Made by a program: the position numbers and the translations under genes. From the NCBI RefSeq assembly GCF_055900595.2, contig NZ_CM148325.1: a stretch of DNA of 64,000 nucleotides. The stretch is one strand, 5' to 3'. Positions 2,105 to 56,876 of this stretch are shown piece by piece; the first letter of the stretch is position 1; each line of letters opens with the position of its first letter. Under the pieces are notes generated by a model. The model worked only from the letters and a program-made list of their open reading frames with translations. It was not told where the DNA came from and made no database searches.

Positions 2105-3248
2105 GTGACTCTGTTCATAGTTATCGTCGGCGCCGGATACAGCATCTACCCTGCTCAGGGCAGACGCTATGGCTTGTATTTTCCGTCCGCCACTGGTACT
2201 GCCGTAACCCGGCTTGTTCACGTAAAATTTTTGCCGGGTCGCTTGCCCCCTTCGCCGGTTCACTCCCAGCATTCTTCACAGGTGTTACAAAATTTACAAC
2301 ATCAACTGGGATTAATAGCCGGAGGTGAGGCCGGGAAACAGGCAGCAACGGCAGTGGGGCTCCGTTGCAGTGCTGATACTCTTCTTCGCAGGGTTATTAA
2401 TACCCCGGAGACGAAACAGTCGGGCGCGCCTCATGTCGGTATTGATGAGTGGGCGTGGCATCGGGGCCACCATTACGGCACGTTAATCGTCAATCTTGAT
2501 ACTCACCGTCCCCTCGTCCTGCTTCCCGGTTGCGATCAGAGTACGCTGGCGACCTGGTTCAGAAAATATCCGGAAATACAGGTTGTCTCACGTGACCGTG
2601 GCGGAGTCTATGCGACAGCAGCACGTGAAGGTGCACCTCAGGCCAGACAGATAGCTGATCGATGGCACCTGCTAAAAAATATTGGCGATGCGCCTGAACG
2701 AATGATGTACAGACAGATGCCTCTGATACGTCTTGTTGCCAGTGGGTTGTCACCAAAGAAATCACCTAAGCCAGTACTGTCTGTGCCTGTAGCATCGCTC
2801 CGTCGTCCGGAACGCCTTAAACAGCAAACCCGCCAAAAACGGCATCAGCGTTGGACAGAGGTTATGGCACTACATAACAAGGGATGTGGGTTCAGGGGAA
2901 ATATCCCGTATTACAGGCTTATCCCGTATTACAGGCTTATCACGTGTGACAGTCAGTCTCTGGGTGTGTTCAGGAACATTCCCTGAAATGTCAACCCGGC
3001 CTCCAGAGCGAGGACTTCTGGACCCATGGAGGGAGTGGTTAAAAGAGCAACGAGAAAGTGGTAACTTCGGCGCGTGGCTGCAAGGATGGCAGCTGATGCT
3101 GCGGCTATATGTGAGGCAATCAGCAGTCGCTGGAATAATGGGGGGTGTCGAAAGTCATGTAAATTGGCTAAAAATGCTGAAAGGCCAGATGTATGGTCGA
3201 GCCGGATTTGAACTACTCAGGCAGAGGGTCATGAGTCCACTGGCATGA
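2105..3248 (+). pseudogene. ISL3-family transposase, frameshifted and lacking N-terminal zinc-ribbon region
   Basis: Two overlapping frames (2105..2986 and 2886..3248) together resemble ISL3-family transposases (VGIDEWAWHRGHHYGTLIVNLDTHRPLVLL ... RWHLLKN ... C-terminal GRAGFELLRQRV); N-terminus absent, region upstream is IS1. Confidence 0.7.
2904..2939 (+). repeat. Perfect 18-bp tandem duplication (TCCCGTATTACAGGCTTA x2) inside the ISL3-family transposase pseudogene
   Basis: Direct reading of sequence; gives IPYYRL IPYYRL in one frame. Confidence 0.9.
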
Positions 3249-51507: not shown

Positions 51508-52438
51508 ATGAATGATAATTTTTTAACGGAGAAAGTCCTTACTGGAGAGAATGTTCTGCGTGCAGCAATTGCTCGTATTGAGTGGGTTTTTGAAACATTT
51601 CCATCAGTTTGTCTCTCTTTTTCCGGTGGTAAAGATTCCACCGTGCTTTTCCATCTTTTGGCTGATGTGGCCCGCAGGAAAAAACGTCGTTTCTCTGTAC
51701 TGTTCATTGACTGGGAGGCTCAGTACCAGTGCACCATTGAACATATTCAGAAGATGCGGGAAATGTACCATGATGTGACGGATACCTTTTACTGGGTGGC
51801 ACTTCCCCTGACCACGGTAAACGGTGTCTCGCAGTTTCAACCGGAATGGATATGCTGGGAGTCGGGCGTGAAGTGGGTTCGCCAGCCACCGGAGGGGGCC
51901 ATTACAGATATGGCGTATTTTCCCTTTTACCGGTATGCCATGACGTTTGAAGAATTTGTTCCGGCATTTTCTTCCTGGTTTGCAGACAATAAATGTGGTG
52001 TGGCAGTACTGACCGGTGTCCGTGCGGATGAGTCCCTTAACCGGTTCATGGGACTGGTATCCCAGCGCAAACTGAGATACGCCGATGATAAGCCCTGGAC
52101 CACGGCATCGCCTGAAGGGTTTTACTACACCATGTATCCGCTGTATGACTGGAAAACTCGTGATATCTGGATATATCACACCAGAACCCGTGCCATCTAC
52201 AATCCCCTGTATGATCTGATGTACCGTGCCGGCGTACCGTTACGCAACATGCGTGTCTGTGAACCTTTTGGTCCTGAACAACGTAAGGGACTGTGGCTTT
52301 ACCATGTTCTGGAGCCGGATACCTGGGCCAGGATGTGTGAGCGGGTGTCAGGGGCTGCCAGCGGGGCACTTTATGCCAATGAAAGCGGTGCTTATTTTGC
52401 CCTGCGTAAGCGCATATCAAAACCAGCCCATCATACCT
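51508..52438 (+). pseudogene. PAPS reductase-like (phosphoadenosine phosphosulfate reductase family, IbrA-like) gene, 3' end truncated by IS911
   Basis: PP-loop motif SFSGGKDSTVLFHLL; ORF runs from native sequence into IS911 left end at 52439. Confidence 0.7.
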
Positions 52439-52510
52439 TGAAGTGGTTTACTGAATTTGGCCACCTGAACAGAGGTGATATGCTCACCTCAGAACAACAC
52501 AGGTGCCATA

Positions 52511-53658
<1,148 letters not shown>

Positions 53659-53802
53659 CTCGGTGGCCAGTTTTTGTTGACCACTTCATATCTGTAAGAC
53701 TCTCATAAAGAATGATTTCTGGTGCCGGACCCTCTCCTTCAGTCCTAACAAACCCCGGCACTATGAACGTTATCTGCAGCGTATGAAAGAAAGGAGGAAG
53801 GA

Positions 53803-54441
53803 ATGGGGGATTCTGTGACAGCGGAGGTACTGAGTGACATGATTCGTCAGTACTTCAGCCAGGAACGACCAGAAGAAGAGACCATACAGGCTCTGAATCA
53901 TCTGCGCAGGGTGCTTCATGAGGTCAGTCCATTTGCACAGGAGCCTGTGGACTGTGTGCTGTGGGTGAAAGCAGATGAGGTGGTGGCCAATGATTATAAT
54001 CCTAATGTCATGGCGCCGGGTGAGAAAAAACTGCTGAAACATTCGCTGGAGCAGGACGGGTTCACGCAGCCTGTGGTTGTCTCGGAAGAGAAGGAGCATT
54101 ATCTGGTGGTGGATGGTTTTCATCGTCAGTTACTGGGCAGGGAAGCAGGTACGGGAAAACGTCTGAAGGGCTGGTTGCCAGTGACCTGTATTAATCCGGA
54201 GAGAAAGGGACAGGCCGCACGCATTGCCGCGACCATTCGACATAACCGGGCCAGGGGAAAACACCAGATAACTTCAATGTCTGATATTGTCAGGGATCTT
54301 TCACGTCTGGGCTGGACGGATGAACGCATTGGCATGGAGCTGGGTATGGACCAGGATGAAGTTCTCAGGTTGAAACAGATTAGCGGGCTGACGGAGCTGT
54401 TTCAGGAAGAGGATTTCAGCCCGGCATGGACGGTTCGCTGA
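53803..54441 (+). CDS. ParB-like nuclease domain protein (IbrB-like)
   Basis: 212 aa; ParB N-terminal-like segment (VVANDYNPNVMAPGEKKLLKHSLEQDGFTQPVVV...YLVVDGFHR). Confidence 0.65.
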   Translation: MGDSVTAEVLSDMIRQYFSQERPEEETIQALNHLRRVLHEVSPFAQEPVDCVLWVKADEVVANDYNPNVMAPGEKKLLKHSLEQDGFTQPVVVSEEKEHYLVVDGFHRQLLGREAGTGKRLKGWLPVTCINPERKGQAARIAATIRHNRARGKHQITSMSDIVRDLSRLGWTDERIGMELGMDQDEVLRLKQISGLTELFQEEDFSPAWTVR

Positions 54442-55495: not shown

Positions 55496-55563
55496 TGCGT
55501 ATTACCATGAAGGAGATCGATGAGTAACCGTTATTGGATGATCTCCTTCCATAAAAATACGCG
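55496..55563. repeat. MITE-like element: two ~33-bp inverted repeats matching the termini of the IS3-family element in asrB, separated by 2 bp
   Basis: TGCGTATTACCATGAAGGAGATCGATGAGTAAC-CG-TTATTGGATGATCTCCTTCCATAAAAATACGCG; compare termini at 30737 and 32480. Confidence 0.7.
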
Positions 55564-56876
55564 TAATCTAATGGTTCGCTCTGTACCAAAAGAAGACATT
55601 GTTCACAATATCGAGTTAATCATTCGATCGTTGAATATTTTCATTGAAAAATTTCTCAGTATAGAATATATCAATGTTGAGGGTATTCCTCTTACATCTC
55701 GAAGGATAACTATCATGGGTCTTAAACCTGGTCCAAAACCAATTGCTAAGTCGACAGGAAAACCGGATCAACGCCGACGCGATAATAAAGATACTCCTGG
55801 CAATACTCCGGGACTAAAGCCAAGTAAGTCCACAGGTAAGTAAAAAAATAAGGGTATAAATAAGCATTTATACCCTGACTATATATCCAGTCCACCGAAG
55901 GTGTTTCAGCAGCCAGATGCTCGTTCTTTCTATATCATACGCCTTTGCCCCGTACCCTTTCGCAAGCAAAGACTCTGGTAAATACTCGTCATATTTATCC
56001 AGATCCTTATCAGGAACAACTGTAGCAGGCTCAAATTCTGAAGGTGCAAAATGGCATCTGAATCGATCACGACTTGGCATGCTTCCGATCATTGATTGGC
56101 ATCCTGCCAATCGTATCGTTCCGGCAAACTCATATTGACGCATTTTTCAGGCGAGCCACTGGGAGCGCATACGAATGGGCGCCGTCTGACGATGGTTGAT
56201 TTATTTTGTTGTACAGGGGCGATCGCCAGGCAGGTGCCGGAGGCTGGCTCTGAAGTGCTGAGTCGGGTAATCGCGTCAGGCTGCGCAGTACTGACATGGG
56301 TACTGGTGGCAGGTGATGAAGTTCGACTCCGGAAATGCCGCCGGGTTGATTGCGTATTCCGCTCTATTCGATCACGGATTGGCCCCCTGTGTACGAACAT
56401 CTGACGGCAGGTGTTGCTCATACAGGGTAAATCCCTCAAGAGGCAACAACTTTGTCAGTCGCTACTCCGGCCACTCAGGCAGACGCGTCAGGATGTTCGT
56501 CAGCCCGGCATGTGACTCTAGGCCATTACGTTTTGCTGTATCCAGAAGACTCATTATCTGTGCTGCATGTTTTCCGTCCCATGATAACCCGATGGATGGC
56601 GTGTTCGTAGATATTGTTGCAGTATGGAACCATATTCTAAGATACTTTGCTGTAAGAAATGCTACGTTTGATGAGCTCTATTTTATTATTCTGCCAGCTA
56701 AAAATTAGTATTGAATATAAAACTCACCACATTGAGAATAAATGAAACAAATATATTTAATCAGGAAGTTAAAAACAGATAACATGGGTGTAATACAATA
56801 AGGTACAGCCAGTAATTCCGGGCTTGCGGAGTTGCTGGATCGTATGACTTAGACGTGATAAAAAACAGGGAATACG

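What the first reader, a model, noticed from the sequence alone, without database searches (positions are those of the whole stretch)
55496..55563. 68-bp MITE-like element made of the two terminal inverted repeats of the IS3-family element that disrupts asrB
The two ~33-bp repeats at 55.5 kb match the left and right termini of the 1744-bp IS at 30737..32480, with a few mismatches, and are separated by only 2 bp. It is a miniature derivative of that IS family and overlaps the start of a 107-aa ORF (55520..55843). Abutted IS termini can create promoters.
Basis: seen in the sequence. Interest (0 to 1): 0.55.

Follow-up and report, generated by a model that had tools for sequence, protein, structure and literature searches.

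The report
Decayed mini-ISEc12 (IS21-family MITE) relic
The 68-bp palindrome is a real but dead miniature transposon made of the two ends of ISEc12, an IS21-family insertion sequence rather than an IS3-family one; it sits at a junction in an E. coli genomic island, shows no sign of promoter activity, and is an ordinary relic.

Summary
Window 55496-55563 is 33 bp + CG + 33 bp. The arms match the two ends of the 1744-bp element in asrB at 31/33 and 28/33 positions, with no chance matches expected.

- **The termini are ISEc12 ends.** They are 100% identical to the ends of ISEc12 over 33 bp and 80 bp. ISEc12 is an IS21-family element with istA/istB. The ends carry the IS21 hallmark of 15-bp motifs repeated every 23 bp.
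- **The asrB "IS3 element" is a composite.** An IS3-family core is nested inside a mini-ISEc12 frame.
- **The 68-mer belongs to a small Escherichia MITE family.** Members are 57-85 bp and lie at eight or more loci. Several have intact TG..CA tips, 5-6 bp target duplications, and matching empty sites.

The window copy is an old, immobile member. Its right tip is CG instead of CA, and it has no target duplication. It sits on the seam between the ibrAB cassette and a widely conserved 42-aa-ORF module. The same copy is present in 559 of 5426 complete E. coli genomes.

The promoter idea does not fit. The tips face outward, and no sigma-70-like site lies inside the element. As RNA it folds into a -26.5 kcal/mol hairpin that buries the SD and start codon. 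The 107-aa ORF is probably an over-extended call.

The parts
55496..55563 (.). 68-bp mini-ISEc12 (MITE). Tips are TG...CG, with no target-site duplication (flanks ATCGG / TAATC).
55496..55528 (+). Left arm, equivalent to the istB-proximal ('ACC-type') end of ISEc12. It is an 18-bp tip followed by one 15-bp unit, AGATCGATGAGTAAC (55514-55528).
   Evidence: 31/33 identical to window 30737-30769, which is itself 33/33 identical to the ISEc12 end
55531..55563 (-). Right arm, equivalent to the istA-proximal ('TTT-type') end of ISEc12. It carries one unit. The terminal base is mutated (CA to CG).
   Evidence: 28/33 identical to window 32448-32480, which is itself identical to the ISEc12 end
30737..32480 (-). 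1744-bp composite element in asrB: an IS3-family core inside a mini-ISEc12 frame. The outer 5-bp TSD GCCCT lies at 30732-30736 and 32481-32485.
30737..30769 (+). ISEc12 ACC-type end of the composite, with one unit.
   Evidence: 33-bp run identical to L014 ISEc12
32401..32480 (-). ISEc12 TTT-type end of the composite, with three 15-bp units at 23-bp period.
   Evidence: 80-bp run identical to L014 ISEc12
30770..32400 (-). IS3-family core. orfA is at 32383-31838 and orfB at 31718-30813. Its own imperfect IRs are CCCCCTGTGTCAGCATAGTTGTCGCC and CGGCGTTTTTCAAGGTAGTTGTCGCC.
   Evidence: PGAP annotates a programmed frameshift in identical copies.
55520..55843 (+). 107-aa ORF as called by annotation pipelines. 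The first 15 codons are read from the mini. It is probably over-extended.
55715..55843 (+). Conserved 42-aa ORF (MGLKPGPKPIAKSTGKPDQRRRDNKDTPGNTPGLKPSKSTGK). It is the core of a roughly 300-bp module that begins 9-19 bp to the right of the mini.
55638..55672 (+). Promoter-like sites inside the conserved module. The scan found TTTTCA-18-TAGAAT. By eye, TTGAAA(55644)-17-TATATC(55672) is conserved in Raoultella and in another E. coli context.
   Evidence: alignment (the second site is my own reading of that alignment)
55851..55876 (.). Hairpin just after the 42-aa ORF (AGGGTATAAAT...ATTTATACCCT). The scan scored it as terminator-like on the minus strand.

Best explanation
Window 55496-55563 is a non-autonomous miniature derivative (MITE) of the ISEc12 lineage of the IS21 family. 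It consists of one 33-bp copy of each terminal inverted repeat. Each copy is the TG tip plus a single IstA-type repeat unit, and the two are joined by 2 bp.

Elements of this family have no genes. They can only have been moved, or first inserted as longer elements, by IstA/IstB supplied by a resident ISEc12. That enzyme cuts at the TG..CA tips and leaves 5-7 bp target duplications.

This particular copy is an old fossil. Its right tip has lost the CA, other alleles have also lost the left TG, and it has no target duplication. It lies exactly on the seam between the ibrA-ibrB-perC-like cassette and a conserved small-ORF module, which suggests it took part in or survived a rearrangement.

It resembles the element in asrB only because that element is an IS3-family IS nested in another mini-ISEc12.

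Its present-day effects are probably incidental. It forms a strong RNA hairpin in the intergenic transcript. It also supplies a fortuitous SD plus start codon that makes gene callers extend the 42-aa ORF to 107 aa.

**Shown:** sequence identity to ISEc12 ends, family membership, target duplications and empty sites of sister copies, and decay of this copy.

**Inferred:** mobilisation in trans by IstA/IstB, immobility of this copy, and absence of function.
For: **The ends are IS21-type.**
- The ends of the asrB element are 33/33 and 80/80 identical to ISEc12 ends.
- ISEc12 IstA scores 310 bits and IstB 270 bits against the NCBIfam IS21 models, both above cutoff.
- The ends carry 15-bp units at a 23-bp period. 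This is the published IS21-family architecture (PMC10122671).
- ISEc12 makes 5-bp TSDs: AACGG in L014 and ACTGC in the literature (PMC10711316).

**Sister minis at other loci.**
- L006: 62 bp, arms 100% identical to ISEc12, TSD CCTGG, empty site in strain 298.
- L028: 57 bp inside an ISL3 transposase gene, TSD GCATAA.
- L038: 85 bp, TSD ATGCA.
- L004/L005/L029: 68 bp with the same architecture as the window copy, and an allele lacking the element in ETEC1703.
- Plasmid copies L007 and L027.

**Abundance in 5426 complete E. coli genomes.**
- 2195 hold a near-full-length mini somewhere.
- 559 hold this locus.
- 1897 hold the CP4-like locus.
- 543 hold the ST131-type locus.
- Full-length ISEc12 is present in 1365.

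**Decay of this copy.** The right tip is CGCG in all alleles. The left tip is TTCG or TTTG in L023 and L025.

**Junction position.** O157:H7 homology stops at the left edge of the mini. Homology to the conserved module starts 9-19 bp to its right.

**Lack of function signals.**
- The hairpin is -26.5 kcal/mol with z = -6.
- No promoter-like site lies inside the element.
- There is no Rfam match.
Against: - No experiment shows that IstA/IstB acts on these minis.
- IS5376 IstA needs two complete repeats per end in vitro, and these minis have one per arm. A roughly 60-bp duplex is also unlikely to synapse its own ends. Some or all minis may therefore have inserted as longer elements and collapsed afterwards.
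- This copy has no TSD, and no empty site was found for it, so its own insertion event is not documented.
- Its arms differ from modern ISEc12 at 2/33 and 5/33 positions. They share variants (TTTTTATGGAAGG) with other old copies, so the true parent may be an extinct ISEc12 relative.
- A regulatory role for the hairpin cannot be excluded from sequence alone.
Confidence: 0.82

Rival explanations
1. The 68-mer is a deletion derivative of the IS3-family element itself. That element's OrfAB transposase owns and uses the TGCGTATT... ends and could mobilise the mini.
For: - Composites made of the IS3-family core plus these outer ends occur at several loci with outer TSDs: window GCCCT, L030 CTGGC, L031 CCTTAA, L034 GCTGAAA, L016 GCACT.
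- The core is always bounded by these units and never shows a TSD of its own.
- OrfA has an extra N-terminal HTH with 12/28 identity to IstA HTH-1.
Against: - The same ends bound a bona fide IS21-family element with istA/istB and show IS21-type 23-bp repeats.
- The core has separate IRs, conserved even in a sibling that is 75% diverged.
- The core occurs in both orientations relative to the frame (L016). It occurs after unit 1, 2 or 3. It also occurs inside a real ISEc12 end with a deletion into istB (L017).
- Unoccupied frames exist, for example L038.
- The HTH similarity is weak and generic.
Confidence: 0.1
2. The element is domesticated. It supplies a promoter, or an SD plus start codon, for the downstream 107-aa ORF. 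Alternatively its hairpin acts as a 3' stabiliser or attenuator for the ibrAB-perC-like operon.
For: - A perfect AAGGAG lies 5 nt before an in-frame ATG.
- The frame stays open in all six alleles examined.
- One common protein variant has lost the internal Met66 (P0004).
- The hairpin is very stable.
- The copy is retained at this site in 559 genomes.
Against: - No sigma-70-like site lies in the element. The only such site is inside the conserved module downstream.
- The SD and start codon are paired in the hairpin stem.
- The start codon is GTG in four of six alleles.
- Variable sites in the 65 N-terminal codons show no third-position excess (4/4/6).
- Those 65 codons are absent from homologues in Raoultella, Vibrio, Pseudomonas and Xanthomonas, which keep only the 42-aa core.
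- No U-tract follows the hairpin.
Confidence: 0.1
3. It never transposed as a mini. A full-length ISEc12-like element inserted here and later collapsed in place, by deletion between its inverted units. Flanking rearrangements then removed the TSD.
For: - The arms are inverted copies of each other, and palindromes are prone to central deletion.
- Minis of 57, 62, 68 and 85 bp have different inner junctions.
- The IS21 two-repeat requirement argues against mobility of one-unit arms.
- L020 keeps only the left arm at this very site.
Against: The 68-bp copy at the CP4-like locus has the same length and the same inner junction (..CCGTTA..) and is 87% identical. This is easier to explain if a 68-bp element already existed and moved. 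The evidence is not decisive.
Confidence: 0.25

Closest known systems
ISEc12 (IS21 family; 2581 bp; istA + istB)
   Same: The tips and first repeat units are the same, at 31/33 and 28/33 positions. Sister minis L006 and L038 are identical to ISEc12 over their arms. Sister copies share the TG..CA tips and the 5-bp class of target duplications.
   Different: The mini has no istA/istB. It has one repeat unit per arm, where ISEc12 has two or more at one end and four or more at the other. The right tip of the window copy is CG.
Bacterial MITEs in general (e.g. Correia/CREE elements, MITEAba12, ERIC/MITEEc1)
   Same: It is small and non-coding, with terminal inverted repeats borrowed from an IS. It occurs at multiple loci, sister copies have target duplications, and it can form an RNA hairpin when transcribed.
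   Different: - It is much shorter (57-85 bp) and has a low copy number, typically 1-3 loci per genome.
- Its IS family is IS21. I found no description of an IS21-derived MITE in the searched literature.
- No sequence similarity to ERIC or REP was seen.
IS21 tandem / circle junction promoters ((IS21)2)
   Same: Both involve two IS21-type ends lying a few base pairs apart.
   Different: The geometry is opposite. In the real junction the outer tips abut, as in L037 where ..ATACGCA-AC-TGCGTAT.. lies between two ISEc12 copies. In the mini the inner sides abut and the tips face the flanks, so the junction promoter cannot form.
IS3-family elements that target repeats (IS1397/ISKpn1 inserting into BIME/REP palindromes; from general knowledge)
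   Same: The IS3-family core in asrB is always found between inverted ISEc12-type units, which suggests palindrome or repeat targeting.
   Different: The target here is another IS's terminal repeats. No TSD of the core is visible. The resulting composite has outer TSDs, as if it moved as a unit.

Membership tests
MITE (non-autonomous miniature IS derivative) | Small size and no coding capacity of its own | tested here: met
   It is 68 bp. The only ORF touching it is a read-through call.
MITE (non-autonomous miniature IS derivative) | Terminal inverted repeats matching those of an autonomous IS | tested here: met
   The arms match at 31/33 and 28/33 positions to ends that are identical to ISEc12 ends.
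MITE (non-autonomous miniature IS derivative) | Target-site duplication flanking the element | tested here: not met
   The window copy has flanks ATCGG / TAATC. The feature is met in sister copies: L006 CCTGG, L028 GCATAA, L038 ATGCA.
MITE (non-autonomous miniature IS derivative) | Several copies in unrelated genomic contexts | tested here: met
   There are at least eight loci. They are the ibrAB island, the CP4-like island, the ST131 locus, an ISL3 transposase gene, the F17 region, two plasmids, and frames occupied by the IS3 core.
MITE (non-autonomous miniature IS derivative) | Insertion polymorphism (filled versus empty sites) | tested here: inconclusive
   Empty sites were found for L006 and for the CP4-like copy. 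None was found for the window copy, which lies on a junction of two modules.
IS21 family / ISEc12 lineage | Ends terminate in 5'-TG...CA-3' | tested here: not met
   The left tip is TG, but the right tip is CG in all six alleles. Sister copies L006, L028 and L038 have intact TG..CA tips.
IS21 family / ISEc12 lineage | Each end is built of two or more direct repeats spaced 23 bp apart (L1/L2, R1/R2) | tested here: not met
   The mini has one unit per arm. The parent-type ends have 3 units (window IS) or 4 or more (ISEc12) at a 23-bp period. The requirement is described in PMC10122671.
IS21 family / ISEc12 lineage | An autonomous partner encodes the IstA transposase and the IstB ATPase | tested here: met
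   In L014, IstA scores 310 bits (cutoff 160) and IstB 270 bits (cutoff 200). Full-length ISEc12 is present in 1365 of 5426 genomes. No copy lies in the 64-kb window.
IS21 family / ISEc12 lineage | Mobilised by IstA/IstB | not testable with these tools
   This needs an in vivo or in vitro transposition assay.
   The core IRs (CCCCCTGTGTCAGC... and ...GAAAAACGCCG) are absent from the mini. The mini's arms match only the outer IS21-type frame.
IS junction promoter (abutted termini) | Outer tips of IRR and IRL abut with a 2-3 bp spacer, giving a -35 in one end and a -10 in the other | tested here: not met
   The tips face outward in the mini, and no promoter-like site lies in it. The true geometry is seen in L037.
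REP / ERIC or another longer repeat family | The 68-mer is part of a longer conserved repeat unit | tested here: not met
   The flanks of copies at different loci are unrelated right up to the tips. There is no Rfam family at E <= 1 over the element.

The most novel reading that the evidence does not exclude
A layered parasitism built on IS21-type ends.

1. Minis of 57-85 bp with a single IstA repeat per arm are, or recently were, transposition-competent in vivo. This would be at odds with the two-repeat requirement measured for IS5376 IstA.

2. An IS3-family element has specialised in nesting exactly between the inverted repeat units of these minis. It carries an extra N-terminal HTH faintly resembling IstA HTH-1. 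It then rides them as a composite that moves with 5-7 bp outer target duplications.

3. Such minis mark seams where defence and accessory cassettes have been joined, as with ibrAB and the conserved 42-aa-ORF module here.
Probability: 0.25. Interest if true: 0.55.

Novelty: new member of a known kind. Interest (0 to 1): 0.3.

Why it matters
**Annotation.** The practical value is mainly here. Thousands of E. coli genomes carry this mini, and gene callers start a 107-aa "hypothetical protein" inside it. The conserved unit is a 42-aa ORF with its own likely promoter. The "IS3 family transposase" element in asrB and elsewhere is really an IS nested in an IS21-type frame, which matters for IS typing and for interpreting insertion events.

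**Transposon biology.** A catalogued ISEc12-derived MITE family would give natural substrates for asking how many IstA repeats an end needs in vivo. The nested IS3-family core is a candidate case of one IS targeting another IS's ends.

None of this changes the verdict on the 68-mer itself, which is a decayed relic.

Tried and rejected
- **Literature searches.** I searched for the terminal sequence, for E. coli IS3/IS21 MITEs, for ISEc12, and for the 42-aa peptide. None described this mini-family. A MITE review has no IS21 entry. The OXA-1054 paper was irrelevant.
- **Scan of 100,044 species genomes with a mini-specific pattern.** It gave only two hits. Both are E. coli-like contigs in gut MAGs carrying loci I already knew. 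No spread beyond Escherichia was detected, but the pattern was exact and limited inner gaps to 26-56 bp.
- **Family searches on the ORFs.** Rfam, PADLOC, Pfam and NCBIfam gave nothing for the 107-aa ORF, the 42-aa ORF or the upstream 214-aa ORF.
- **Empty site for the window copy.** I found only module junctions (O157:H7, L021) and a half-element (L020), not a clean empty site.
- **An unoccupied 3+1-unit frame.** The perfect BLAST hit turned out to be an ISEc12 tandem junction (L037) rather than a mini. A 2+1 mini (L038) was found instead.
- **Do IstA and the IS3-type OrfA share DNA-binding domains?** I found only a 28-residue generic HTH similarity, which I judged too weak to use.
- **Rejected readings.**
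  - IS circle or tandem junction: the geometry is wrong.
  - Intrinsic terminator: there is no U-tract.
  - REP/ERIC: the repeat unit is limited to the element.

Full report
**1.

Window 55496-55563 reads TGCGTATTACCATGAAGGAGATCGATGAGTAAC / CG / TTATTGGATGATCTCCTTCCATAAAAATACGCG. The left 33 bp match the left end of the element at 30737 at 31/33 positions. The right 33 bp match its right end at 32480 at 28/33 positions.

A degenerate core pattern shared by all four termini occurs exactly four times in the window. None is expected in shuffles.

The 1744-bp element is bounded by a 5-bp direct repeat, GCCCT, and splits an asrB-like frame. The window itself is Escherichia DNA. Both the asr island and the 50-64 kb island have 96-98% matches in complete E. 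coli genomes.

**2. The termini belong to an IS21-family element, not to the IS3 family**

I searched the 68-mer against 5426 complete E. coli genomes. Besides full-length matches, half-matches turned up at the ends of ISEc12.

- **Identity.** ISEc12 in O55:H7 (L014, 2581 bp, TSD AACGG) has ends identical to those of the asrB element. Identity runs for 33 bp at one end and 80 bp at the other.
- **Genes.** Its genes are a bona fide IstA (310 bits, cutoff 160) and IstB (270 bits, cutoff 200).
- **Architecture.** The ends consist of a tip, TGCGTATT..., followed by 15-bp units AGATCNNTGANTAAC repeated every 23 bp. There are three units at the asrB element's right end and four or more in ISEc12. 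This is the architecture described for IS21-family ends: L1/L2 and R1/R2 repeats spaced 23 bp apart, each bound by IstA HTH domains (PMC10122671).
- **Target duplication.** ISEc12 is reported to make 5-bp target duplications (PMC10711316).

**3. What the asrB element is**

Its orfB is an IS3-family transposase (173 bits, cutoff 160), and identical copies are annotated with a programmed frameshift. However, the IS3-type genes and their own imperfect inverted repeats form a core of about 1631 bp that sits inside the IS21-type frame. Those repeats are CCCCCTGTGTCAGCATAGTTGTCGCC and CGGCGTTTTTCAAGGTAGTTGTCGCC.

The core is found in several arrangements in other genomes:

| Arrangement | Loci |
|---|---|
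| After unit 1 | L030, L031 |
| After unit 2 | L001, L032 |
| After unit 3 | window |
| Opposite orientation in a different mini | L016 |
| Directly after the first unit of a real ISEc12 end, with a deletion into istB | L017 |

A sibling core only 75% identical occupies the same frame on a Klebsiella pneumoniae plasmid (L034).

The outer ends of these composites carry 5-7 bp duplications: GCCCT, CTGGC, CCTTAA, GCTGAAA and GCACT. The core itself shows none. An unoccupied frame with 2+1 units exists (L038, 85 bp, TSD ATGCA).

The simplest reading is an IS3-family element that inserts preferentially between inverted ISEc12-type units. The composite then behaves as a unit bounded by IS21-type ends. 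Which transposase moves the composite is not established.

**4. The 68-mer is one member of a small family of mini-ISEc12 elements**

| Locus | Size | Features |
|---|---|---|
| ibrAB island (this copy) | 68 bp | Tips TG..CG, no TSD |
| Between a YeeP-like GTPase gene and yfjI in CP4-like islands (L004, L005, L029) | 68 bp | Same length and inner junction as this copy, 87% identical; an allele lacking it in ETEC1703 |
| ST131-type locus (L006) | 62 bp | Arms identical to modern ISEc12, tips TG..CA, TSD CCTGG; uninterrupted site with a single CCTGG in strain 298 |
| Inside an ISL3 transposase gene (L028) | 57 bp | TSD GCATAA |
| F17 fimbrial region (L038) | 85 bp | 2+1 units, TSD ATGCA |
| Plasmid copies (L007, L027) | about 57-62 bp | No clear TSD seen |

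Counts among the 5426 complete genomes:

| What is present | Genomes |
|---|---|
| A near-full-length mini somewhere | 2195 |
| The ibrAB-locus copy | 559 |
| The CP4-like copy | 1897 |
| The ST131-type copy | 543 |
| Full-length ISEc12 | 1365 |
| The IS3-in-mini composite | 183 |

An exact-pattern scan of one genome per species found the mini only on two E. coli-like contigs in gut MAGs. The family therefore appears confined to Escherichia.

**5. State of the window copy**

- **Decay.** In all six alleles compared, the right tip is ...ACGCG rather than ...ACGCA. In two alleles the left TG has become TT. There is no target duplication.
- **Left side.** The ibrA-ibrB-perC-like-214-aa cassette of O157:H7 is homologous up to the base before the mini and then diverges completely.
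- **Right side.** Homology to a roughly 300-bp module begins 9-19 bp after the mini. This module is found in Raoultella and in other E. coli contexts.
- **A variant at the same site.** One genome keeps only the left arm here, followed by an IS66 fragment (L020).

The copy therefore lies on a seam between two modules and is best seen as a fossil. I infer that it is no longer mobile. That inference rests on the general requirement of DDE transposases for the terminal CA, which is noted for IstA.

**6. Function**

- **Geometry.** That mechanism needs the outer tips to abut. An example is the ISEc12 tandem in strain 4/1-1, where ...ATACGCA-AC-TGCGTAT... lies between two full copies (L037). In the mini the inner sides abut and the tips face outward.
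- **Promoter scan.** The consensus scan finds no sigma-70-like site in the element. The one site in the region (55638-55667) lies inside the conserved module. By eye, a TTGAAA-17-TATATC pair at 55644-55672 is conserved across three contexts in the alignment. That second site is my own inference.
- **RNA structure.** As RNA the element folds into a hairpin of -26.5 kcal/mol, with z = -6.05 and 0 of 200 shuffles as stable. The hairpin pairs the AAGGAG and the start codon. No U-tract follows, so it is not an intrinsic terminator.

**7. The 107-aa ORF**

- PGAP annotates it in E. coli genomes.
- Homologues in Raoultella, Klebsiella, Vibrio, Pseudomonas, Xanthomonas and others share only the last 42 residues, at 80-100% identity. 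Their upstream parts are unrelated.
- The start codon in the mini is ATG only in the window/L002 allele and GTG elsewhere, as in the ISEc12 end itself.
- Variable sites in the 65 upstream codons are spread 4/4/6 over codon positions. In the neighbouring 214-aa gene the spread is 18/11/27.
- Against this, the frame stays open in all alleles examined, and a common variant has Ile at the internal Met (P0004).

I regard the long ORF as probably an over-extension, but this is not proven.

**8. Open mechanistic problem**

The minis carry one repeat unit per arm, whereas IS5376 IstA needs two in vitro. A roughly 60-bp duplex is also too stiff to bring its own ends together; that point is my inference from general DNA mechanics.

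Clean TSDs and empty sites do not distinguish two routes: insertion as a mini, or insertion of a longer element followed by central deletion of a palindrome. The shared 68-bp architecture at two unrelated loci favours movement as a mini, at least once. The different inner junctions of the 57-, 62-, 68- and 85-bp copies favour repeated collapse. I leave this unresolved.

**9. Verdict**

The parent family was misassigned: it is IS21/ISEc12, not IS3. The promoter and ORF-start suggestions are not supported.

The element is an ordinary, decayed mini-IS of a family that I could not find described. It is a new member of a known kind and of modest interest. The more unusual by-products are the IS3-family core that nests in IS21-type ends and the widely conserved 42-aa-ORF module next to varied defence genes.

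Noticed in passing
window 55572-55900 (ORF 55715-55843): A roughly 300-bp module encodes a 42-aa Lys/Pro-rich peptide, MGLKPGPKPIAKSTGKPDQRRRDNKDTPGNTPGLKPSKSTGK. It has a likely promoter and a terminal hairpin.

The peptide is 80-100% conserved from E. coli to Vibrio, Pseudomonas and Xanthomonas. The module lies next to different defence-type genes in each context: BrxC/D-like ATPase + helicase + TerB, an SMC-like ATPase + phage integrase, or a type I R-M system.

It has no Pfam, NCBIfam, PADLOC or Rfam match and no literature hit.
   Followed up: partly
window 30770-32400; L001, L016, L017, L030-L032, L034-L036: The IS3-family core is always found between inverted ISEc12-type repeat units, after unit 1, 2 or 3 and in either orientation. 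It has no TSD of its own, while the composite carries 5-7 bp outer TSDs. A 75%-diverged sibling core sits in the same frame on a K. pneumoniae plasmid. This suggests an IS that targets another IS's ends and rides them.
   Followed up: partly
window 31838-32383 (-), OrfA of the IS3-family core: OrfA has an N-terminal extension of about 85 aa containing an additional HTH. Residues 36-63 show 12/28 identity with IstA HTH-1 of ISEc12 (pairwise E = 5e-4). The Pfam HTH hits are all weak.
   Followed up: partly
L037 1201-1315 (E. coli 4/1-1 chromosome): Two full ISEc12 copies lie in tandem with their tips abutted and a 2-bp spacer (..GGTAATACGCA-AC-TGCGTATTTTC..). This is the classical reactive (IS21)2-type junction.
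   Followed up: partly
window ~52420-53690: Another IS3-family element (272-aa orfB at 52840-53658) interrupts the 3' part of the ibrA-like PAPS-reductase gene, just upstream of the ibrB-like gene at 53803-54441. Related E. coli islands lack this insertion.
   Followed up: partly
L015 ~2950-3035; L020 3667-3740: Single arms of the mini abut the same IS66-family-associated sequence (..GGCATCTGAATCGATCACAGTTTG..) in two different genomes, in opposite orientations. It looks as if an IS66-type element had split a mini.
   Followed up: no
F-type plasmids, hits H341-H366 at psiA: A 114-bp sequence about 75% identical to a 3+1-unit mini-ISEc12 frame lies at or inside the psiA annotation on many F-like plasmids.
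   Followed up: no
window 55514-55518, 55540-55544, 30755-30759, 32402-32462: Every 15-bp repeat unit of these ends contains a GATC (Dam) site. Dam methylation could therefore modulate transposase binding, as it does in some other IS. This was not tested.
   Followed up: no
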